A stretch of DNA of 64,000 bases from Candidatus Omnitrophota bacterium (GTDB lineage: Bacteria > Omnitrophota > Gorgyraeia > Zapsychrales > Zapsychraceae). The notes beneath the pieces were generated by a model. The model was not told the DNA's origin and did not search any database. It saw nothing but the letters and a program-made list of their open reading frames with translations. Made by a program: the position numbers and the translations under genes. Where the stretch lies: positions 702,361 to 766,360 of the forward strand of contig JBFWOS010000001.1 in the NCBI GenBank assembly GCA_050250375.1. The letters run 5' to 3'. This document shows, piece after piece, positions 9,347-52,905 of this stretch (within the stretch, counting starts at the first letter, position 1; each line of letters opens with the position of its first letter).

Positions 9347-9435
9347 ATTTTAAAAAACTTTGCGGGAGGCGCGGGACAGGACGTTTGTCGAACATGGATA
9401 ATGACCAACTGCCCTCTACCTTACCTTTTCCACAT

Positions 9436-9906
9436 CTATTTTTTCTTTATCCTCAAATGTTCCTCGGGACCAAATCTGTTAAAAATAGAATGATAAATAA
9501 CGCTTCCTGGCAATCGCCATTCATTATAAGGATAACCGTCTTTCCCAATCTTTGAAATTTTTGGTTCTCCAAATTCCTTTTCAAAATAGTCGTTGAATTC
9601 TTTAAATGATTTATCTAGATCAATATAAGAAGACCGAAAGAATTCCAACTCTTTTAGAAGGCCCTTTCTTCTTGGCTCAAAATGAAATCCTAAATTATGT
9701 TTAAGTCCACCCAATGATTCGCAATAACTTTTGGCATAATAACCTTCAGTGACATGATTAAGCGTCACTTTATTATTTTCAAATATTTCAACAAACAGAT
9801 CTTCTTTAATATTCCAAGGAATAAATAAACTTGGCTTATCTATCTGAAATCCATTTCTTATATCCATAACAACCTTAAAAGAGAAGGGGATTTGTGCCGG
9901 CCACAA
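9436..9906 (-). CDS. Hypothetical protein (AT-rich, no recognisable domain)
   Basis: 156-aa ORF in a low-GC segment. Confidence 0.45.
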   Translation of the reverse strand: MWPAQIPFSFKVVMDIRNGFQIDKPSLFIPWNIKEDLFVEIFENNKVTLNHVTEGYYAKSYCESLGGLKHNLGFHFEPRRKGLLKELEFFRSSYIDLDKSFKEFNDYFEKEFGEPKISKIGKDGYPYNEWRLPGSVIYHSIFNRFGPEEHLRIKKK

Positions 9907-9929
9907 AAAAACGTGCCAGTTTGTGCCAG

Positions 9930-10490
9930 CTATCTATTTTCTTCAATCCAATCATGCGCAAGCTTATTAATTCGTTTAATCTGTTCTGGGGTTAAGCTTC
10001 GCATGATTTGATCTCGTAAACCACGGGCTCTCCATTTGGCCTGCATATCTGAAGATAGCTGCGTGTAAAACCGAGCAATCTCGAGCCAGAAATATGCTTT
10101 TTCAAAAGATTGTTCAATATTATCGCCGTCTCCATACATTACTGCCAAATTAATCATTCCCCTTGGATCTCCGGCATTGGCAGCCTCTTTATATAGAGAT
10201 ATTGCTTTTTCATTATCTTCTGCAACACCTAAACCCAAGTCATACATATAGCCTAAGTTAGTTTTCGCATATGATAAGTCCTGATCCACAGCCTTTTGAT
10301 AATACATAACAGCCTTCTCATAATCTTGCGGAACACCATCTCCAAATTGATATCTGCTTCCCATATTATTTAACCCAGCACCTTCTCCCATCGCCGCTAA
10401 TTTTTGATCCTCAGATAAACTAGAAGCAGTCACAGTTGCGCAGCCACTTAGAAGTAAAGAAAAAATTAACAAATAAATTTGCTTGCTCAT
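9930..10490 (-). CDS. Sel1-repeat lipoprotein
   Basis: Lipobox LLLSGC. Tandem Sel1-like repeats (GVPQDYEKAVMYYQKAVDQ, GVAEDNEKAISLYKEAANAG). Confidence 0.75.
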   Translation of the reverse strand: MSKQIYLLIFSLLLSGCATVTASSLSEDQKLAAMGEGAGLNNMGSRYQFGDGVPQDYEKAVMYYQKAVDQDLSYAKTNLGYMYDLGLGVAEDNEKAISLYKEAANAGDPRGMINLAVMYGDGDNIEQSFEKAYFWLEIARFYTQLSSDMQAKWRARGLRDQIMRSLTPEQIKRINKLAHDWIEENR

Positions 10491-10557
10491 AATATTTTAT
10501 CCTACACTTATACGATGGACACACCGCTTAAGTAGTGGCATTACATTACTTAACTAC

Positions 10558-10697
10558 TGGTCAATCCCCTTCAACTTCAAAAAATCGCGGACGGTTTGGA
10601 CGACATAATCCATCTGGTTCAATTCAAGGTCCTGGTGGATGCCGATATGGGTGCCGCGGGCGGAGCAGTATTCGGCTTCCCGGGACGTACTTAATTA
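10558..10697 (-). pseudogene. Relic of the last ~43 codons of a DegT/ColD-family gene, a diverged copy of the 3-prime end of the gene at 12222..13475
   Basis: Translates to EAEYCSARGTHIGIHQDLELNQMDYVVQTVRDFLKLKGIDQ*. The intact gene ends EAEYCAGHGTHIGIHQDIELNQLDYVAQTVRDFLKAKGINR*. About 80 percent nt identity over ~140 bp. In frame directly behind the Fic stop codon. Confidence 0.6.
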
Positions 10698-11894
10698 TTG
10701 ATTCAGTCCGCTGTCCTCTTTTAATGAGTAACTCGTGCTGCGGCCGCCGGCCGGGTCCTTAACCAAAACACCTTTTCCAACAAGATCAAGAATGTCCCGA
10801 TGAGCGGTATCCTGCGAACACTTGGTGATTTTCGCCCATTTTGAAGTGGTCAGTTTACCCTCAAAACTGTCAAACAACTTGTTGATCATTGTCTTCTGGC
10901 GTTCGTTAATGGATCCAGCCGGAAGAGAATCCCAGAAGCGCACCTTTTTGAACACACCGGACAATGTGGTTTCGGTTGTGTCCAGCGCCCGGCCCAAACA
11001 ATTTAAAAACCACACCAGCCACGCCGTGATATCAATGCCGTCTTTTGCGGCATGGATACTTTTCTGTGTCTTTTCAAGAATATCGTAATAGGCATTCCGT
11101 TCCTGCCGGATATGGTTCGACATGCTGTAAAAACGCTCCCGGCTGCCGTCGGCGCGCGCCAGCTGCATATCGGCAATGGCCCGGGCTATACGGCCGTTGC
11201 CGTCATCAAAAGGGTGAAGCGTCACGAACCACAAATGCGCGATACCCGCCTTGAGCACGGGGTCCAAGTCCTTCGATCCACCTGTGGTGAGCGAAGGCCT
11301 TCGACCTTGCGCAGGCCGAGCCGAACCATTGAACCAAGCCAGAAATTCCTTCGTTTCACTCTTGAGGCGGCCGGCTTCCGGCGCTTCATAATGGACCTTC
11401 TCCCGGCCAACAGGACCGGACACAACTCGCATGGGGCCATGACGGTCGTCGCGCCAGGCGCCAACGGTAATTTTATGCATTCCACTGTGTCCGGTCGGAA
11501 ACAAACCGGCCTGCCAGCCAAACATTCGATCCTGGGTAAGGGGCTTGTCGAAATTCTGAGTGGCATCGAGCATCATTTCCACCACCCCGTCCACGTGACG
11601 ATCAGACGGCACAAGCCCTCCAATGTCCATACCCAGCCTTCGCGCGATGGATGAGCGCACTTTGGCCGGATCAAGGACCTCCCCCTCAATTTCACTGCTT
11701 TTTAAAACGTCAAGAGTGAGCGTCTGTAAAACGGCCTCCGAACGCAAAGAAAATCCCAGCGTTTCCATGCGTCCGATCAATCGCCCCTGCCGGTTGCGCA
11801 CGGGACCTAATATCGACGTGATTTTTTCATGATCCCATGTAAACGTCGGCCAAATATCTAATTCATGGATGTATTTCATCCCGGTTCCCTTCAT
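10695..11894 (-). CDS. Fic-family protein (DUF4172-type N-domain, Fic core, C-terminal winged helix)
   Basis: Canonical Fic motif HPFDDGNGRIARA. The true start is probably the second Met (MKYIHELD, 11879), which is preceded by AAGGGAA. Confidence 0.9.
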   Translation of the reverse strand: MKGTGMKYIHELDIWPTFTWDHEKITSILGPVRNRQGRLIGRMETLGFSLRSEAVLQTLTLDVLKSSEIEGEVLDPAKVRSSIARRLGMDIGGLVPSDRHVDGVVEMMLDATQNFDKPLTQDRMFGWQAGLFPTGHSGMHKITVGAWRDDRHGPMRVVSGPVGREKVHYEAPEAGRLKSETKEFLAWFNGSARPAQGRRPSLTTGGSKDLDPVLKAGIAHLWFVTLHPFDDGNGRIARAIADMQLARADGSRERFYSMSNHIRQERNAYYDILEKTQKSIHAAKDGIDITAWLVWFLNCLGRALDTTETTLSGVFKKVRFWDSLPAGSINERQKTMINKLFDSFEGKLTTSKWAKITKCSQDTAHRDILDLVGKGVLVKDPAGGRSTSYSLKEDSGLNQ

Positions 11895-11919
11895 GTTTTA
11901 AGCGGCAAACAAACGACAC

Positions 11920-12142
11920 ATTCTCCGCATTTTCTGCGTAGAATATAACACATATTCTCCGCATTAACAAGCGGTATTTCAGACTAAAGAAGATGATCTT
12001 GTCGTAAAAAATACCTGCTTTTGCGGCAGAGTAAATTGATTATATATATGTAAGATATTAAAATATAACAACTTGAGATGGGTTGTTTAAACCACGTGTA
12101 TACGCTTAACCTTTGCGGAGATTAGGCCCATTATTCTCCGCA
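11920..12142 (-). promoter_or_regulatory. Array of ATTCTCCGCAT direct repeats (11920, 11954, 12133) plus one inverted partial copy (TGCGGAGAT at 12114) in the Fic upstream region
   Basis: An 11-mer is identical in three copies with similar flanks (acaCATTCTCCGCAT / acaTATTCTCCGCAT / catTATTCTCCGCAT). An A/T-rich stretch lies between them. Confidence 0.5.
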
Positions 12143-12221
12143 TATCCGGCTCTAATCCCAGGGGCACGTACCCTGTCTTTGGGAAGGGGAGTCCCGGTTT
12201 CGGGACAGAACTACAGCTTTT

Positions 12222-13475
12222 TTACCGGTTAATCCCCTTCGCCTTGAGAAAATCGCGGACGGTCTGGGCGACGTAATCCAGCTGGTTCAGCTCGATGTCC
12301 TGGTGGATCCCGATATGGGTGCCGTGGCCGGCGCAATATTCCGCCTCGGGGAATTCACCTTGTTTATGCCCCATAAAGCCGTAACTCGGGCACTGGGTCG
12401 GGATGGAGGAAAATAAATTTCTTGAGTCGATCCCCTGCTGTTCGATGTGTTGCACGAATTCGTCTTTCGTAAACGGGCAGTTTTCTTTCAGGATGATCGA
12501 GAAGGCATGCGGCCCGATTTTTTCATGTTCCTGTTCATGCAATGTGATAAAAAATTCCTGAAAATCCCTGAACAGGTTGATCAGATACAATAAATTCCGG
12601 CGGCGTTTGCCCAGGATATCCTGAAAGATGTCGATATTACCCAGACCGACAGCCGCTTCCATTTCGTTCATCTTGGCGGAAAAACCGATCCGCTGGAACT
12701 CAAATTTGTTGACGATGCCGTGGTTGCGCAGCGACTGCATGGCCTGGGCTTTTTTCTCGTCGTTGGTGATGATGATCCCGCCTTCAATCGTGGTCACGAT
12801 ATGGGCGGCGTAAAGGCTGAAGGCGGCCATGTCGCCGATCGAGCCGATCTTCTTCCCTTTATATTCCGCGCCATGCGCCTCGGCCGCGTCTTCGATAACG
12901 ATCAGGTTATGTTTCTTGGCGATGGCCATGATCTTATCCATCTCGGCCGGTTTGCCCATCAGATGCACGGGCATGAGGGCGCGCGTTTTTTGGGTGATCG
13001 CTTTTTCAATCAGGTCCGGATTGATATTCAGCGTGTGCCGGTCGACATCCACAAACACAGGCGTTAACCCGGCCTGCAGGACGGCATTGGCGGTAGCGAC
13101 AAAGGTCAGCGCCGGGATGATCACCTCATCCCCGCGTTGGGCGCCGTAATCATACAGCACCGCGCAGGCAATCGCGTCGGCGTCGGTCCCGCTGCTGACG
13201 GCCACGGCGTATTTCACGCCGAACAGTTTGGCGAAACGTTCTTCGAACTCCTGCACAAAACGCCCGCGCGTCAGCCATTTTGACCGCAACGCCTCCTGGA
13301 TCAGCTCAACGGAGCGGTCCGTCAGGGAAACGGTCCCGAACGGGACCTTGAAATCTTTCTTAGCCGACATGGCTGAACTATTTTCCATTCCTAAAGAACT
13401 CCATGGCTTTTTCGTAGCGCTCCGGCGTGCCGATGTCAAAAAATTCGCCTTTGGACTTAAACCCGTACAAACCAT
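12222..13475 (-). CDS. ColD/E1(DdhC, RfbH)-type PMP-dependent NDP-4-keto-6-deoxy-sugar 3-dehydrase
   Basis: DegT fold in which the Schiff-base Lys is replaced by His (FSLYAAHIVTTIEGG, cf. ColD/E1 FY.HHI.TMEGG). C-terminal Cys residues are present. The start is more likely an internal Met (13388 or 13370), because the track start overlaps the upstream gene by 98 nt. Confidence 0.8.
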   Translation of the reverse strand: MVCTGLSPKANFLTSARRSATKKPWSSLGMENSSAMSAKKDFKVPFGTVSLTDRSVELIQEALRSKWLTRGRFVQEFEERFAKLFGVKYAVAVSSGTDADAIACAVLYDYGAQRGDEVIIPALTFVATANAVLQAGLTPVFVDVDRHTLNINPDLIEKAITQKTRALMPVHLMGKPAEMDKIMAIAKKHNLIVIEDAAEAHGAEYKGKKIGSIGDMAAFSLYAAHIVTTIEGGIIITNDEKKAQAMQSLRNHGIVNKFEFQRIGFSAKMNEMEAAVGLGNIDIFQDILGKRRRNLLYLINLFRDFQEFFITLHEQEHEKIGPHAFSIILKENCPFTKDEFVQHIEQQGIDSRNLFSSIPTQCPSYGFMGHKQGEFPEAEYCAGHGTHIGIHQDIELNQLDYVAQTVRDFLKAKGINR

Positions 13476-14088
13476 CTTCGATCAGGGAGGGAAACACATC
13501 GTATTCCAACGAAAACTTTCCTTCTTCGGGCATCATCTCAAACACATCCTGGTTGAAACAATACCGCCCGGCGTTAATAAAGGCCGCGCCTTTGTCTTTT
13601 TTTTCTTCAAAGGCCAGGATCCGGTCGGAGTCGTCCATCGTCAGGCTCCCGTAGTCTTTGCTGTCTTCCATCCGCGCGGCCACCATAGACGCGGCCGCTT
13701 TCTTGGACCGGTGGAATTCGGCAAATTTCTTAAAGTCGACCTCGCAGTAACAATCCCCGTTTAACACAAAAAACGGATCGCTTTCAACGATGGGCTGGGC
13801 GTTCTTAACCGCGCCGCCGGTCCCGAGCGGTTCTTCTTCCCGGGAAAAATCGACGACGAAATCCCGGTCGTTCTTCCGGTAATAATCTTCGATCCACTGG
13901 GCCTTGTATCCGGTGCACAGGACAAAACGCTGAAAGCCCTGCTCATATAATTTTTCCATGACGATATCCAGAAACGGCCGCTCTTCAAACTGGACCATGA
14001 CCTTGGGCGTGTCGGGGTCAATGCTTCTCAAACGTTTGCCTAACCCGCCGCACAGGATAACGACATCAAGATTCTCCAGCATTGTCAT
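13378..14088 (-). CDS. Sugar-1-phosphate nucleotidyltransferase (HddC/GDP-heptose guanylyltransferase-like)
   Basis: VVILCGGLGKRLR nucleotidyltransferase motif. Start chosen at MTMLENLD because the track N-extension overlaps the kinase gene. Confidence 0.8.
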   Translation of the reverse strand: MTMLENLDVVILCGGLGKRLRSIDPDTPKVMVQFEERPFLDIVMEKLYEQGFQRFVLCTGYKAQWIEDYYRKNDRDFVVDFSREEEPLGTGGAVKNAQPIVESDPFFVLNGDCYCEVDFKKFAEFHRSKKAAASMVAARMEDSKDYGSLTMDDSDRILAFEEKKDKGAAFINAGRYCFNQDVFEMMPEEGKFSLEYDVFPSLIEDGLYGFKSKGEFFDIGTPERYEKAMEFFRNGK

Positions 14089-15076
14089 ATTCTCCGTTCG
14101 GTTGATAAAAAATAATCTGGCTGCCCAGGCTCTCGAATTCAAACGGTACCAGGAGCAAATCCTTTAATTTTTCCCTGACCTTCTTCTGTTTCTCCGGGGG
14201 GACAAATAATAATACGAACCCGCCTCCGCCCGCCCCGAGCAATTTTCCGCCGACCGCGCCGGACGCCTTGGCCGAGTCATAAATCTCGTCAATCATCGGG
14301 GTCGAAATCTTGTCGGAGAGTTTTCTCTTGATCTGCCAGCCCTCATCGAGGAGTTCGCCGAATTCTTTGAGCCGGTCTTCCTTGAGCAGTTCAAGCCCCC
14401 TGACCGCCATTGCGTGCATGGCCTTCAACTCCGGTTTCTTTTTGGGGATATTTTTAATCTGATGGGCCGCGATCACCGAGGCGGTCCGGGAAAACCCGGT
14501 AAAAAATAACATCAAATGGTCCTGAAACCGCTTCAAGCGGTCCGAGGGAATAATCACCTTGTTGACCTGCAGAAGCTGGCTCCCGCCGAATTCAATAAAA
14601 TTAAATCCTCCGTAAGCCGCCAGCGCCTGGTCCTGGCAGCCGACATTTTCATGGCACATCTGCTGTTCGATATAAATGGCCTCTTCCGTCAGTTTGGACT
14701 TGCTCGTCATCCGTCCCAGCAGGGCGTAAAGGCTGTTTAACAATCCGACGGTGAATGAAGAACTTGAACCCAGGCCGGTCCGGGCCGGCAAATCGCCGTC
14801 GTGGTGGATCTCGATCCCTTTATGGATGTCCAGGTATCGAAGGACTTCCCGCACGGCCGGGTGATCAATATCATTGATTTCGGAAACATGTTCCATCTTG
14901 GAGTAGATGATCCTGGACTTATGGTCGAAGAACGGCGGCAGGTACCGGCAGGTGATATAACAATATTTATTAATCGTCGTTGCCAGGACAGCCCCGGGGT
15001 TGTTTTCAAACCAGGCCGGATAATCCGTCCCTCCTCCGAAAAACGACATGCGAAATGGTGTGCGGCTGATGATCAT
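14066..15076 (-). CDS. GHMP-family sugar kinase (HddA-like D-glycero-D-manno-heptose 7-phosphate kinase / fucokinase-like)
   Basis: MIISRTPFRMSFFGGGTDYP N-terminus. GHMP motif PARTGLGSSSSFTVG. Confidence 0.8.
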   Translation of the reverse strand: MIISRTPFRMSFFGGGTDYPAWFENNPGAVLATTINKYCYITCRYLPPFFDHKSRIIYSKMEHVSEINDIDHPAVREVLRYLDIHKGIEIHHDGDLPARTGLGSSSSFTVGLLNSLYALLGRMTSKSKLTEEAIYIEQQMCHENVGCQDQALAAYGGFNFIEFGGSQLLQVNKVIIPSDRLKRFQDHLMLFFTGFSRTASVIAAHQIKNIPKKKPELKAMHAMAVRGLELLKEDRLKEFGELLDEGWQIKRKLSDKISTPMIDEIYDSAKASGAVGGKLLGAGGGGFVLLFVPPEKQKKVREKLKDLLLVPFEFESLGSQIIFYQPNGEYDNAGES

Positions 15077-16584
15077 ACCGGCTTCCTCTCCTCCAGGATT
15101 TTTCTCTTAAGTTTGATCGTGGTTGAACGGACCGTCTCATCATAGGCCGTCTGGCCGAATTTGGTTTTGAGCAGATCCAGGAATTGGCTGTTCGTGTGAT
15201 ATTTCATCCAGGCCTCGTCCCGGAAGGCGAGCACTTCCTGCGCCGAGAGATATTTCGTCGGCAGCGGCAGCTGATGATAGGAATGCTGGGAATACCCCGT
15301 ATACGTGTCCGGAAGTTTCCAGCCCTTTTCAAGCGCCATGCCGTACAGCGGACTGCCGGGGTACGCCATAGCCGAATAAAAATTGGCCTCTTCGGTGTTC
15401 ATCTCCATCGCCAGGTCCAGGGTCGTCTGCATGCTCTGGTGATCATCCTCGGGAAGGCCGAAAATGTAATTGGCGATGACGTTGATGTCATGCTCCCGGA
15501 TTTTCCCGACCACGTCCCTGATGTCGACATCTTCAAACCGGCCTTTGGTGACATCCTTGCGCACCCGGGTATTGCCGCTTTCGATGCCCAGGGCCAGCCA
15601 ATTGACACCGGCTTTTTTGAGGGTCTCGAGAAATTTTTCTTTGACCGTGTCCACCCGGGAATAACACCAGATGTTGAATTTGTATTTCCGTTCGATGATC
15701 AGTTCACACAGCTTCATAAAATGATTTGAGTTCAGGACGAACAGTTCGTCGGCGATCTTGATATTGGTGATCCCGCGTTTGGCGAGTTCATCAAATTCTC
15801 CAATGATGAATTCCGGGTCCCAGTAACGGAACACGGCACTTCCGTCGGAATACTGGTTTTCCTGCCGGTTGATGATGTTGATCATGCAAAACGAACATTT
15901 CATCGGGCAGCCGAGGCTGGTGTACAAGGCCGCGAACGGCTGGCGTTGGGAACCGTTCGGGTACGAATGCCACAGGCTTGTCCGGTAATTTTTCATCGGC
16001 AGTTTGTCCCAGGGAATACCCGGCAGTTCTTTGGGCAGGTCCGCCTTCTCGACGATCGGGGAGGGCGCGTTTAACACGACTGTTCCGTCCTGCCTGTATC
16101 CGAGTCCGGGAACGGCACTAAGTTTGTCTTTCAAATTGGTCTTAAGCAAAGTGGAAATCGTGTAAACCCCTTCGTTCTGGCAGACAAAATCGATGCACGC
16201 GTGATTCTCCAGCACTTCGCGGGATAACGCGGCGATGTGGCCCCCGACAAACAGAATCTTTACCTCCGGCAAGATATTCCTGAGCTCCTGCGCGAGCGCG
16301 ACGGCGCCTTCCATATTCTGCGAACTCGCGGACGGCTGCTGGCCGTAAACGACAAAACAGGCCACCTTCGGCTTTATCTCCTTGATCTTCCGGGCTGATT
16401 CTTCATCCGTTAAGTGCAGGGCCTCACAGTCGAGGATGTCCGCCGAAAACCCTCTCGAGAGACAGTGGCTGGTCAGCATACCGGCCCAGATCGGCGGCTC
16501 AATGGCAGAAAAATCTTTGCTTAAATCCTGGTAGATTTTATGCGAGGCATTGGGATGAACAAATAAAATATCAAGCTGTCCCAT
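15073..16584 (-). CDS. Cobalamin(B12)-binding radical SAM protein (class B rSAM)
   Basis: N-terminal B12-binding Rossmann-like domain (KILFVGGHIAAL). CPMKCSFC radical SAM cluster motif. 503 aa. 4-nt overlap with the kinase gene. Confidence 0.85.
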   Translation of the reverse strand: MGQLDILFVHPNASHKIYQDLSKDFSAIEPPIWAGMLTSHCLSRGFSADILDCEALHLTDEESARKIKEIKPKVACFVVYGQQPSASSQNMEGAVALAQELRNILPEVKILFVGGHIAALSREVLENHACIDFVCQNEGVYTISTLLKTNLKDKLSAVPGLGYRQDGTVVLNAPSPIVEKADLPKELPGIPWDKLPMKNYRTSLWHSYPNGSQRQPFAALYTSLGCPMKCSFCMINIINRQENQYSDGSAVFRYWDPEFIIGEFDELAKRGITNIKIADELFVLNSNHFMKLCELIIERKYKFNIWCYSRVDTVKEKFLETLKKAGVNWLALGIESGNTRVRKDVTKGRFEDVDIRDVVGKIREHDINVIANYIFGLPEDDHQSMQTTLDLAMEMNTEEANFYSAMAYPGSPLYGMALEKGWKLPDTYTGYSQHSYHQLPLPTKYLSAQEVLAFRDEAWMKYHTNSQFLDLLKTKFGQTAYDETVRSTTIKLKRKILEERKPV

Positions 16585-51630: not shown

Positions 51631-52905
51631 TCATTTTAAATTCTTAAATTTTCCAACGAGATTGGTAGGCACAGAGGCCCGGATGTTAATCTTGTCATTA
51701 TAATATTTAATGGAAAGGACCTCCCCCTCCTCATGCACAAGGCTGACCAAATCCATGCGGTGAATAGGGACATTTACATTAATTTCAATAAAAAGCCCGG
51801 AGAGCAATTCTGTAATCTTGTCGAATAACCCCTGAATCCCTTCGGCCTTTAAAACAGAAATGCAGACCGCATGTTCAAAATTCTTAGAAAAATCCGGCAG
51901 CCAGCTGCGATCCTCCAAACGGTCAATCTTGTTAAACACAAGGATGGTGGGCTTGTCCAACGACTCAAGATCTTCAAGAACTTCTCTAACGGCTTCAAAC
52001 ATCTGCCTGAAGTTCGGATGACTGATGTCAACAACATGCAAAAGTAAATCAGCATCCCTGACTTCTTCCAATGTGGCTTTAAATGATTCGATTAGATGGT
52101 GCGGCAATTCATGCATAAGTCCAACCGTATCCGAGAGAACTATTTTCTGATGATTCGGCAAAATGAACTGGCGGGACAGGGAGTCCAGCGTAGTAAACAT
52201 ACCATCCTGTGTTTTTTGATGGGCTCCCGTCAAATAATTCAACAAAGTGGATTTTCCCGCATTGGTATACCCTACCAATGAAACGCTCGGCAATCCTTTA
52301 TTAAATCTTTTCTTACGGCCTGTCTGGCGGTTCTGAACGATTAATTTTAACTCTTTCTTTAATCTTGAAATTCGAACAGAAATCCGCCGGCGGTCGACTT
52401 CAAGCTTTGTTTCGCCAGGCCCCAGCGTTCCTATCCCGCCGCCGAGCCTGGATAATTCCGCCCCTTTTCCGACCAGCCGCGGCAAAAGATATTCCAGCTG
52501 CGCTAATTCCACCTGCATTTTACCTTCCTGGCTTTTGGCGTGTCTTGCAAAAATGTCGAGAATCAACTGGGTCCGGTCGATTGTCTTAATTTTAAACACT
52601 TCTTCAAGGTTGCGTATCTGGCTCCCTTTTAATTCGTGGCTGAAAACGATTGCATCGACAGGTTTAATTTCACACAGAGCCAAAATTTCCGCTGATTTGC
52701 TGTCTCCGATAAAATTTTTGGCCGTCGGCTGCCTTACTTTGCAAATAATACTGTCCACCACTTGCCCCCCGGAGGCCTTGACCAACTCTTCCATTTCCAA
52801 ACGTTTATCCTCAGCCGCCCATTCCGTATGCTCCGTTTTTAAATCAATCGCCACAACCAAAACTTTTTCCAGCGAACCTTGTTTAGTCAAAAACTCACTT
52901 TTCAT
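51631..52905 (-). CDS. hflX: GTPase HflX
   Basis: HflX N-domain plus G domain (GYTNAGKSTLLN, DTVG). Confidence 0.9.
   Translation of the reverse strand: MKSEFLTKQGSLEKVLVVAIDLKTEHTEWAAEDKRLEMEELVKASGGQVVDSIICKVRQPTAKNFIGDSKSAEILALCEIKPVDAIVFSHELKGSQIRNLEEVFKIKTIDRTQLILDIFARHAKSQEGKMQVELAQLEYLLPRLVGKGAELSRLGGGIGTLGPGETKLEVDRRRISVRISRLKKELKLIVQNRQTGRKKRFNKGLPSVSLVGYTNAGKSTLLNYLTGAHQKTQDGMFTTLDSLSRQFILPNHQKIVLSDTVGLMHELPHHLIESFKATLEEVRDADLLLHVVDISHPNFRQMFEAVREVLEDLESLDKPTILVFNKIDRLEDRSWLPDFSKNFEHAVCISVLKAEGIQGLFDKITELLSGLFIEINVNVPIHRMDLVSLVHEEGEVLSIKYYNDKINIRASVPTNLVGKFKNLK

What the first reader, a model, noticed from the sequence alone, without database searches (positions are those of the whole stretch)
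11895..12221. ATTCTCCGCAT repeat array in the Fic upstream region
Three direct copies of an identical 11-mer with similar 3-nt flanks (11920, 11954, 12133), plus one inverted partial copy (12114). They are embedded in an AT-rich 330-bp spacer between the Fic gene and the ColD-like gene. This layout is typical of multiple operator sites. The Fic protein itself ends in a winged-helix-like domain, so autoregulation is a reasonable hypothesis. A palindromic hairpin GTCCCGGTTTCGGGAC (12191-12206) lies right after the ColD-like stop.
Basis: seen in the sequence. Interest (0 to 1): 0.6.

Follow-up and report, generated by a model that had tools for sequence, protein, structure and literature searches.

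The report
Self-operator array of a Fic enzyme
The repeated 11-mer is real: it is the DNA site that this Fic enzyme's own DNA-binding tail most likely recognises at its own promoter, and the same box layout sits in front of related Fic genes across many bacterial phyla, which supplies the specific DNA target that had not been defined for this enzyme family.

Summary
Confirmed. Three exact ATTCTCCGCAT copies (11920, 11954, 12133) lie upstream of a minus-strand Fic gene. Two inverted copies (11935-11945, 12114-12124) and one degenerate copy (11900-11910) accompany them. In gene orientation the box is aTGCGGAGAATa.

The proximal boxes are wrapped round a sigma-70-like promoter. One fills the 17-nt spacer, one is fused to the -10 and the likely start site, and one lies in the short leader.

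The same layout precedes 80 of 80 orthologues (58-81% identical) from at least six phyla. Box density is 24/kb in the 140 nt upstream against 0.23/kb elsewhere, which is the chance level. No neighbouring gene is conserved.

The box sequence follows the protein. Where the first residue of the winged-helix recognition helix is His instead of Gln, all 11 direct boxes read TGCGT instead of TGCGG. This holds in 6 loci on several independent branches (Fisher p = 2e-8). Subfamilies with other helices use other boxes; Coxiella CbFic2 uses TGAAGCGATTA.

Best explanation: the Fic dimer binds these boxes and represses its own promoter. This mechanism is shown for CccR and suggested for SoFic. The motif and its multi-box layout appear undescribed. 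No binding or expression data exist here.

The parts
10695..11879 (-). Gene for a class II Fic enzyme (DUF4172 + Fic + C-terminal wHTH), 394 aa from the likely start at 11879. The ORF extends to an upstream ATG at 11894.
   Evidence: Pfam DUF4172 E 8e-32 and Fic E 3e-12. Motifs HPFDDGNGRIAR and SSEIEG are read in the translation. Orthologue alignments start at MKYI. PDB 8CIL matches at E 7e-89.
10722..10904 (-). Coding region of the winged helix-turn-helix domain (residues 326-386).
   Evidence: AF2 model: H326-338, H345-352, H356-368, strands 372-374 and 384-386, local pLDDT 83-96. Translation. It aligns to the CbFic2 HTH domain described in PMC10628234.
10776..10814 (-). Recognition helix QDTAHRDILDLVG. 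Its first residue, Q356, is the position that co-varies with box position 5.
11900..11910 (+). Box B4', a degenerate inverted copy (AAGCGGCAAAC) placed 9 nt after B4 in the 5' leader.
   Evidence: family D1. Close Omnitrophota relatives have a good copy (TTCTCCGCA) at the same place.
11920..11930 (-). Box B4 (ATGCGGAGAAT in gene orientation), in the leader just downstream of the predicted start site.
   Evidence: 19.2 bits.
11935..11945 (+). Box B3', an inverted copy (TGCGTAGAATA) fused to the -10 hexamer and covering the predicted start site.
   Evidence: I3. Family consensus tATATTc.cCGCA with an invariant final A. 14.4 bits.
11942..11947 (-). -10 hexamer TATATT, with a TG extension.
   Evidence: Positions 16-21 of the family consensus are conserved in 58-73 of 74 loci.
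11954..11964 (-). Box B3 (ATGCGGAGAAT), filling the 17-nt spacer between -35 and -10.
   Evidence: 21.7 bits, the maximum.
11965..11970 (-). -35 hexamer TTGTTA.
   Evidence: TTG is conserved in 44-53 of 74 loci at this position.
12005..12030 (-). Terminator-like hairpin plus T-run (CTGCCGCAAAAGCAGG TATTTTTT) between the distal palindrome and the Fic promoter. It probably ends transcription coming from the DegT gene.
   Evidence: Consensus match only; function is inferred.
12114..12124 (+). Box B1', the inverted half (TGCGGAGATTA) of the distal palindrome.
   Evidence: I7; 18.0 bits.
12133..12143 (-). Box B1 (ATGCGGAGAAT), the direct half of the distal palindrome. It lies about 180 nt upstream of the promoter instead of directly next to it as in most loci.
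   Evidence: 21.7 bits. Typical position in the family is -99/-79.
12191..12206 (.). Hairpin GTCCCGGTTTCGGGAC after the DegT stop. It is not part of the operator array.
   Evidence: The fold of the region is not significant (z -1.37).

Best explanation
The ATTCTCCGCAT copies (aTGCGGAGAATa in gene orientation) are operator half-sites for the winged-helix domain of the Fic protein encoded directly downstream. The basic unit is box, 9 nt, inverted box (20 bp centre to centre, two helical turns). A further direct box follows 14 bp later. In the window the proximal unit is wrapped round the fic promoter. B3 fills the -35/-10 spacer, B3' is fused to the -10 and the start site, and B4 (with a decayed B4') lies in the leader. 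A second palindrome (B1/B1') lies about 180 nt upstream as an auxiliary site. A Fic dimer bound here would occlude RNA polymerase, so the enzyme, a potential toxin, would limit its own synthesis (negative autoregulation). Shown here: the existence of the sites, their positions and conservation, their specificity to this gene, their overlap with promoter elements, the presence of a wHTH, and co-variation of box and recognition helix. Inferred: physical binding, dimer stoichiometry, and that the outcome is repression.
For: 1. All 80 orthologous loci carry 2-6 boxes within 160 nt upstream. Direct boxes peak at -99, -65, -45 and -11 and inverted boxes at -79 and -25. Density is 24.1/kb there against 0.23/kb in 488 kb of flanks; chance is 0.21/kb.
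2. The gapless consensus is ttg-N3-aTGCGGaGAATA-N5-tATATT-c.cCGCA-taa.a-TGCGGAgAATa. Boxes are near 2 bits per position and the spacers near 0, although the proteins are only 58-81% identical.
3. No conserved neighbouring gene exists, and the hosts span Omnitrophota, Bacteroidota, Planctomycetota, Pseudomonadota, Acidobacteriota and Verrucomicrobiota.
4. In the six loci where the first residue of the recognition helix is His, 11 of 11 direct boxes have T at position 5. In other loci the counts are 150 G, 5 T and 8 other. Locus-level Fisher p = 2.3e-8. Five of the six His loci have a non-His nearest relative.
5. Subfamilies with different helices have different boxes in the same layout: CbFic2 TGAAGCGATTA, Pantoea and Acinetobacter TGAGCCGAAT, Azospirillum TGAGGCGAAT, Legionella TTGAGTTATA.
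6. The protein is a full-length homologue of CbFic2 (8CIL; E 7e-89, TM 0.83), whose wHTH binds DNA at nanomolar affinity. CbFic2 activation saturates at 20 bp of DNA, which the authors propose spans both HTH domains of a dimer. This matches the 20-bp half-site spacing.
7. Precedents: CccR represses its own promoter through inverted boxes at -35/-10 (PMC9755527). The SoFic dimer binds the first 100 bp upstream of its own gene (bioRxiv 10.64898/2026.07.09.737422).
Against: There are no binding, footprint, transcription-start or expression data for this protein or any member of its clade. The promoter and start site are consensus predictions. Most conserved boxes are in direct orientation at 34 and about 20 bp, which a simple symmetric dimer does not explain; higher-order or flexible binding must be assumed. 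CbFic2 bound random DNA with high affinity and no sequence preference was tested. The co-variation statistic is not corrected for phylogeny, and the tree is an unbootstrapped NJ tree. The distal palindrome in the window is not at the family's usual position, so its function is less certain.
Confidence: 0.8

Rival explanations
1. The boxes are bound by the Fic protein, but the main consequence is not repression. Either binding activates the promoter, or the array is chiefly an allosteric platform that dimerises the enzyme and switches it between AMPylation and deAMPylation.
For: DNA binding stimulates CbFic2 activity, and DNA-induced dimerisation switches it to deAMPylation (PMC10628234). Upstream boxes at -99 to -65 are placed where activators often bind. 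Solo box modules occur away from promoters in L053, L076, L065, L049 and the window.
Against: Boxes B3, B3' and B4 cover the spacer, the -10, the start site and the leader, which is the classic placement for repression. The only tested relative with a defined operator, CccR, is a repressor. The two roles are not mutually exclusive.
Confidence: 0.12
2. The repeats act at the RNA level. Alternative hairpins between direct and inverted copies in the 5' leader would control translation or termination (attenuator-like), with GGAG in the last box serving as the ribosome-binding site.
For: Direct, inverted, direct copies could form mutually exclusive stems. B4 contains GGAG and abuts the ATG in many loci. 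Omnitrophota loci have a B4/B4' pair in the leader.
Against: There is no Rfam match. Folds are not better than shuffles (z -1.37 and +0.64). B1-B3 lie upstream of the predicted start site. The sequence itself is conserved rather than co-varying as pairs. Bacteroidota, which rarely use Shine-Dalgarno sites, conserve B4 equally. The box sequence co-varies with a protein residue.
Confidence: 0.04
3. The boxes are sites for an unrelated host factor (a global regulator, or DnaA-like boxes), or they are ends or recombination sites of a mobile Fic cassette.
For: The gene is scattered across phyla and lies on 457 plasmid records, so it moves horizontally. A module copy follows the gene in L053, and a roughly 100-nt duplicated flank containing a module follows it in L076. 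TGCGGAGAA shares 7 of 9 positions with the DnaA box TGTGGATAA (own knowledge).
Against: No host factor is shared with constant specificity across six phyla. There is no conserved neighbour or recombinase. The two positions that differ from a DnaA box are nearly invariant: C in 70 of 74 loci and G in 66 of 74. The boxes are interleaved with promoter elements and track the Fic recognition helix.
Confidence: 0.04

Closest known systems
CccR of Yersinia pseudotuberculosis (class II Fic + C-terminal HTH; PDB 7XUX; PMC9755527)
   Same: It is a Fic enzyme that binds repeated boxes near the -35 and -10 of its own promoter through its C-terminal HTH, as a dimer, and represses itself. This was shown by lacZ fusion, EMSA, DNase I footprint and ITC.
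   Different: It has a different box and geometry: two inverted 10-mers, AGATAATCAT-N26-ATGATAATCT, against arrays of 3-6 aTGCGGAGAATa boxes spaced 20, 14 and 34 bp here. The protein is only distantly related (fold TM 0.45-0.48, 16% identity). CccR is also a T6SS effector.
CbFic2 of Coxiella burnetii (CBU_0822; PDB 8CIL; PMC10628234)
   Same: It is the closest solved relative (E 7e-89; TM 0.83; 41% identity), with the same DUF4172-Fic-wHTH build, inhibitory motif and Fic motif. Its wHTH binds DNA, and about 20 bp of DNA promotes dimerisation and modulates activity. Its own upstream region has the same box/-10/box layout.
   Different: No specific DNA motif or autoregulation was reported; random DNA was used. 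Its boxes read TGAAGCGATTA and its recognition helix is SRTTAYRE, against SQDTAHRD here. It has been studied as a secreted effector that targets histone H3.
SoFic of Shewanella oneidensis (SO_4266; PDB 3EQX; bioRxiv 10.64898/2026.07.09.737422)
   Same: It is a dimeric class II Fic with a wHTH. It binds specifically to the first 100 bp upstream of its own gene, and autoregulation has been proposed. The PADLOC SoFic model matches the window protein over its full length (E 1.8e-36).
   Different: It is only remotely related in sequence (E 2e-5, Fic motif region only; TM about 0.57). The NCBIfam SoFic equivalog scores 40 bits against a cut-off of 550. No operator motif has been defined for SoFic.

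Membership tests
Self-operator of a Fic-wHTH enzyme (CccR-type autoregulation) | Repeated or palindromic boxes within the promoter of the Fic gene itself, overlapping -35/-10 | tested here: met
   B3 lies in the 17-nt spacer, B3' is fused to the -10, and B4 lies in the leader.
Self-operator of a Fic-wHTH enzyme (CccR-type autoregulation) | The encoded Fic protein carries a C-terminal (w)HTH DNA-binding domain | tested here: met
   AF2 model residues 326-386, overall pLDDT 90; 8CIL homology.
Self-operator of a Fic-wHTH enzyme (CccR-type autoregulation) | The protein binds the boxes specifically | not testable with these tools
   Indirect support only: the box co-varies with the recognition helix (His goes with T5, Fisher p = 2.3e-8; subfamily-specific boxes). 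EMSA or a footprint is needed.
Self-operator of a Fic-wHTH enzyme (CccR-type autoregulation) | Binding represses transcription of the gene | not testable with these tools
   Inferred from the box positions relative to the predicted promoter.
Self-operator of a Fic-wHTH enzyme (CccR-type autoregulation) | CccR operator sequence and geometry (AGATAATCAT-N26-ATGATAATCT) | tested here: not met
   The box sequence and spacings are different. The site works like the CccR operator but is not the same operator.
CbFic2-like DUF4172-Fic-wHTH class II Fic proteins | [quoted passage not shown] | tested here: met
   Pfam DUF4172 and Fic. SSEIEG and HPFDDGNGRIAR are read in the translation. Full-length match to 8CIL.
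CbFic2-like DUF4172-Fic-wHTH class II Fic proteins | DNA-stimulated AMPylation and dimer-dependent deAMPylation | not testable with these tools
   Known only for CbFic2.
SoFic anti-phage defence gene | Match to curated SoFic models | tested here: inconclusive
   PADLOC SoFic E 1.8e-36 over the full length, but the NCBIfam equivalog NF046030 scores 40 bits against a cut-off of 550. No defence-island context was examined.
Cis-regulatory RNA (riboswitch, attenuator or leader) | Conserved secondary structure in the transcript, or an Rfam family match | tested here: not met
   No Rfam hit at E<=10 other than noise. Fold z-scores are -1.37 and +0.64. Most boxes lie upstream of the predicted start site.
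Dispersed repeat (REP, MITE or similar) | Copies scattered through the genome regardless of gene context | tested here: not met
   There are no other exact copies in 64 kb. Density in 488 kb of orthologue flanks equals the chance level. The isolated PWM hit at 51755 lies inside an ORF with no partner box.
DnaA-box cluster | Match to TTATNCACA / TGTGNATAA | tested here: not met
   The two differing positions are fixed as C (70 of 74) and G (66 of 74) across the family.

The most novel reading that the evidence does not exclude
The promoter box array may be more than a repressor site. It may be the cognate allosteric ligand of the enzyme. In that reading, binding to box-N9-box' DNA dimerises the Fic protein and holds it in the deAMPylating (harmless) state, while protein not bound to its operator is the AMPylating (toxic) form. 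Examples would be protein made in excess, protein present after loss of the plasmid or locus, or protein titrated away by invading DNA. A single gene with its operator would then behave as a self-contained addiction or defence module. That could explain why the gene together with its promoter and boxes travels as a unit across phyla and plasmids.
Probability: 0.15. Interest if true: 0.8.

Novelty: new member of a known kind. Interest (0 to 1): 0.55.

Why it matters
Class II Fic enzymes with a winged-helix tail are very common; one search found more than 7,700 relatives at E<=1e-60. Their regulation is poorly understood. For the best-studied close relative, CbFic2, DNA binding controls enzymatic activity but only random DNA has been tested, and for SoFic only a 100-bp promoter fragment is known. 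The comparative analysis here gives three usable results. First, a defined 11-bp box and a 31-bp palindromic unit. Second, a predicted specificity-determining residue (Gln or His at the start of the recognition helix, pairing with G or T at box position 5). Third, matching boxes for several subfamilies in culturable hosts: Sinorhizobium meliloti, Ralstonia solanacearum, Agrobacterium, Pantoea, Acinetobacter and Coxiella. Together these make autoregulation and DNA-dependent activity switching directly testable with cognate DNA.

Tried and rejected
1. Rfam scan of 11700-12400 at E<=10 gave only two noise hits.
2. tRNA/tmRNA scan of the window found none.
3. RNA folding of the intergenic region and of the leader was no better than shuffles.
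4. Small ORFs of 20 aa or more in the spacer: nothing credible and none conserved.
5. Clustering of flanking ORFs over 81 loci to find a conserved neighbour that could be the regulator found none. Only the Fic gene and its antisense shadow ORFs recur.
6. Viral contigs held no relative of the protein.
7. The metagenome scan with CbFic2 returned only 7 loci, fewer than hoped.
8. tblastn for Fic pseudogene remnants next to the solo box modules (L076, L053, L065, window) found nothing significant.
9. Full-text search for the box sequence returned only unrelated primer and sequence hits. Searches for CbFic2, DUF4172 and autoregulation returned no paper that defines this motif.
10. DnaA-box resemblance was considered and rejected from the column counts.
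11. The strong PWM hit at 51755 was checked. It is a single box inside a 424-aa ORF and is taken as chance.

Full report
**Observation**

The 11-mer ATTCTCCGCAT occurs exactly three times in the 64-kb window, at 11920, 11954 and 12133. All three lie in the spacer between two minus-strand genes. An exact 11-mer is expected about 0.03 times in this amount of sequence.

The downstream gene (10695-11894, minus strand) encodes a DUF4172 + Fic protein. The upstream gene (12222-13475, minus strand) encodes a DegT/DnrJ/EryC1-family aminotransferase. Because the Fic gene is on the minus strand, the box in gene orientation reads ATGCGGAGAAT.

The repeat finder shows that the copies are halves of imperfect palindromes:
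- 11935-11963 is TGCGTAGAATAT-N5-ATATTCTCCGCA, 92% complementary.
- 12114-12142 is TGCGGAGATTA-N7-TATTCTCCGCA, 91% complementary.
- A decayed inverted copy follows the 11920 box at 11900-11910.

It has no U-run on the transcribed strand and no significant fold.

**Position relative to the promoter**

The only good sigma-70-like promoter facing the Fic gene is TTGTTA (11970-11965), 17 nt, TG-n-TATATT (11947-11942). Relative to it:
- Box B3 (11964-11954) fills the spacer.
- The inverted box B3' (11945-11935) is fused to the -10 and covers the expected start site.
- Box B4 (11930-11920) lies in the leader.

Orthologue alignments indicate that translation starts at the second ATG (11879, MKYIHELD), which is preceded by AAGGGA.

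**Conservation**

A scan of one genome per species returned 395 relatives. The best 80 (58-81% identity) come from Omnitrophota (the likely source of the window), Planctomycetota, Bacteroidota, Pseudomonadota, Acidobacteriota, Verrucomicrobiota and others.

Almost every locus has ATGCGGAGAAT, with at most one mismatch, two to six times directly upstream of the gene. The core TGCGGAGAA (at most one mismatch) occurs at 24.1/kb in the 140 nt upstream. In the remaining 488 kb it occurs at 0.23/kb, which equals the chance expectation of 0.21/kb.

Positions are fixed. Direct boxes lie at about -99, -65, -45 and -11, and inverted boxes at -79 and -25. Neighbouring-box spacings are:
- 20 bp from direct to inverted (86 cases).
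- 14 bp from inverted to direct (67 cases).
- 34 or 19-21 bp from direct to direct.

A gapless consensus over 74 loci reads ttg-N3-aTGCGGaGAATA-N5-tATATT-c.cCGCA-taa.a-TGCGGAgAATa, and in most loci the ATG follows. Box columns approach 2 bits each and spacer columns carry about none. At 58-81% protein identity neutral DNA would be randomised, so the boxes and the promoter hexamers are under selection.

In Bacteroidota the -10-fused element reads TATATTTG/A. By my own knowledge this fits that phylum's -7 promoter motif (TAnnTTTG), and the CCGCA core of the inverted box is kept.

**Which protein binds**

Clustering all flanking ORFs over 81 loci found no conserved neighbour. A regulator that travels with the boxes can therefore only be the Fic protein itself.

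Features of the protein:
- The Fic motif HPFDDGNGRIAR and the N-terminal inhibitory motif SSEIEG, which mark a class II Fic.
- A full-length match to PDB 8CIL, Coxiella burnetii CbFic2 (E 7e-89).
- A confident AlphaFold model (pLDDT 90) that superposes on 8CIL (TM 0.83) and ends in a wHTH: helices 326-338, 345-352 and 356-368, with wing strands 372-374 and 384-386.
- The recognition helix QDTAHRDILDLVG.

**Co-variation of box and recognition helix**

Among the orthologues, the first residue of the recognition helix (KITKCS-X-DTA) is Q, P, A, S, T, N or G in most loci and H in six (L003, L013, L015, L024, L034, L044).
- In the six His loci, all 11 direct boxes read TGCG-T.
- In the other loci the counts at that position are 150 G, 5 T and 8 other.
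- The locus-level Fisher p is 2.3e-8.
- The His loci fall on several branches of an NJ tree, and five of the six have a non-His nearest relative. The switch therefore happened repeatedly.

More distant subfamilies keep the layout but change both the helix and the box:

| Subfamily or host | Recognition helix | Box |
|---|---|---|
| CbFic2 clade | TSR(T/A)TAYRE | TGAAGCGATTA / TAATCGCTTCA, fused to TATAAT |
| Pantoea, Acinetobacter lwoffii | VSKATATRH | TGAGCCGAAT |
| Azospirillum | CSLPTAQRD | TGAGGCGAAT |
| Legionella adelaidensis | TSRATATRD | TTGAGTTATA |

This is the expected signature when the encoded DNA-binding domain reads the upstream boxes.

**What is already known**

- CccR, a distantly related class II Fic-HTH protein, represses its own promoter by binding AGATAATCAT-N26-ATGATAATCT as a dimer (PMC9755527).
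- CbFic2 binds DNA through its wHTH at nanomolar affinity. DNA stimulates its activity up to a length of 20 bp. The authors propose that 20 bp spans both HTH domains of a dimer. Only random DNA was used, and they state that a specific motif remains conceivable (PMC10628234).
- A July 2026 preprint shows that the SoFic dimer binds the first 100 bp upstream of its own gene, without defining a motif.
- Full-text searches found no paper that gives the TGCGGAGAA or TGAAGCGATTA boxes.

The principle is therefore known. The motif, its multi-box layout and its cross-phylum conservation appear to be new. The 20-bp centre-to-centre spacing of box and inverted box agrees with the CbFic2 length dependence.

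**Mechanism proposed**

A Fic dimer, possibly in higher-order assemblies given the additional direct boxes, binds the palindromic units. The proximal unit covers the spacer, the -10, the start site and the leader, and so blocks RNA polymerase. This would be negative autoregulation of a potentially toxic enzyme.

In the window the upstream unit (B1/B1', 12143-12114) lies about 180 nt from the promoter. AT-rich DNA separates them, and this stretch contains a terminator-like hairpin (12030-12005) that probably ends transcription from the DegT gene. Displaced or solo modules also occur in L049, L065, L053 and L076. This suggests auxiliary operators, though that role is not established.

Binding, stoichiometry and the direction of regulation are inferences.

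**Rivals**

- An RNA-level element is disfavoured. There is no Rfam hit, the folds are not significant, most boxes lie upstream of the predicted start site, and sequence rather than pairing is conserved.
- A host factor, a DnaA box or a mobility site is disfavoured by the phylogenetic spread, the lack of conserved neighbours, the fixed C and G at the positions that differ from a DnaA box, and the co-variation with the Fic helix.
- An activating or purely allosteric role for binding cannot be excluded and may coexist with repression.

**Specificity within the window**

A PWM trained on other loci puts 5 of the 6 best window hits in this spacer. The sixth, at 51755, is a lone box inside a 424-aa ORF. 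After removing the Fic-region hits, the number of remaining hits is near the shuffled expectation.

**Verdict**

The site is a new member of a known kind, the self-operator of a Fic-wHTH enzyme. Its value is practical: it provides a defined cognate DNA and a predicted specificity residue for a large enzyme family.

Noticed in passing
window 9400-10600: Directly downstream of the Fic gene, GC drops to 0.33-0.41 against about 0.5-0.58 around it. The stretch encodes a Sel1-repeat protein with a lipoprotein-like N-terminus (9930-10490, minus strand) and a 156-aa protein with no Pfam match (9436-9906, minus strand). It is possibly horizontally acquired DNA next to the Fic gene.
   Followed up: partly
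window 11265-11330 (residues about 184-205 of the 394-aa protein): The window's Fic protein has an insertion of about 17 residues (ARPAQGRRPSLTTGGSK) between the WFN motif and the helix before the Fic motif. It is absent from CbFic2 and shorter or absent in the orthologues checked. It is modelled with pLDDT below 50.
   Followed up: partly
window 12005-12091, minus strand: A second promoter-like site (TTTAAA/TAAACA, then TG-TATATT at 12067-12062) is followed about 30 nt later by a terminator-like hairpin with a T-run (12030-12005). Together they could give a transcript of about 50 nt, or they could be chance in AT-rich DNA. The -10 region resembles the Fic -10 (TGTTATATT).
   Followed up: no
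L076 4500-4620 and L053 4110-4165: A copy of the upstream box module lies downstream of the Fic gene. In L076 it is part of a roughly 100-nt duplication of the upstream flank and is followed by a HipA-like two-gene pair. In L053 it directly follows the stop codon. No Fic pseudogene remnant was found.
   Followed up: partly
plasmid collection (H1-H65; loci L094-L107): Relatives of this Fic protein are on 457 plasmid records (Pantoea, Phaeobacter, Agrobacterium, Ralstonia, Sinorhizobium, Acinetobacter and others), and 113 of these plasmids are typed as conjugative. Each sampled subfamily has its own repeated boxes upstream.
   Followed up: yes
L081 2440-2500 (Coxiella burnetii CbFic2 locus): The promoter of the experimentally studied CbFic2 gene carries GAAGCGATTAATGT-TATAAT-CGCTTCA followed by GAAGCAATT. 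This is a candidate specific DNA target that the published work, which used random DNA, did not test.
   Followed up: partly
window 12222-16584, minus strand: Upstream of the spacer lies a run of co-directional sugar-modification genes: a DegT-family aminotransferase, a nucleotidyl transferase, a 336-aa ORF and a 503-aa ORF. Only the first two were checked against Pfam.
   Followed up: no
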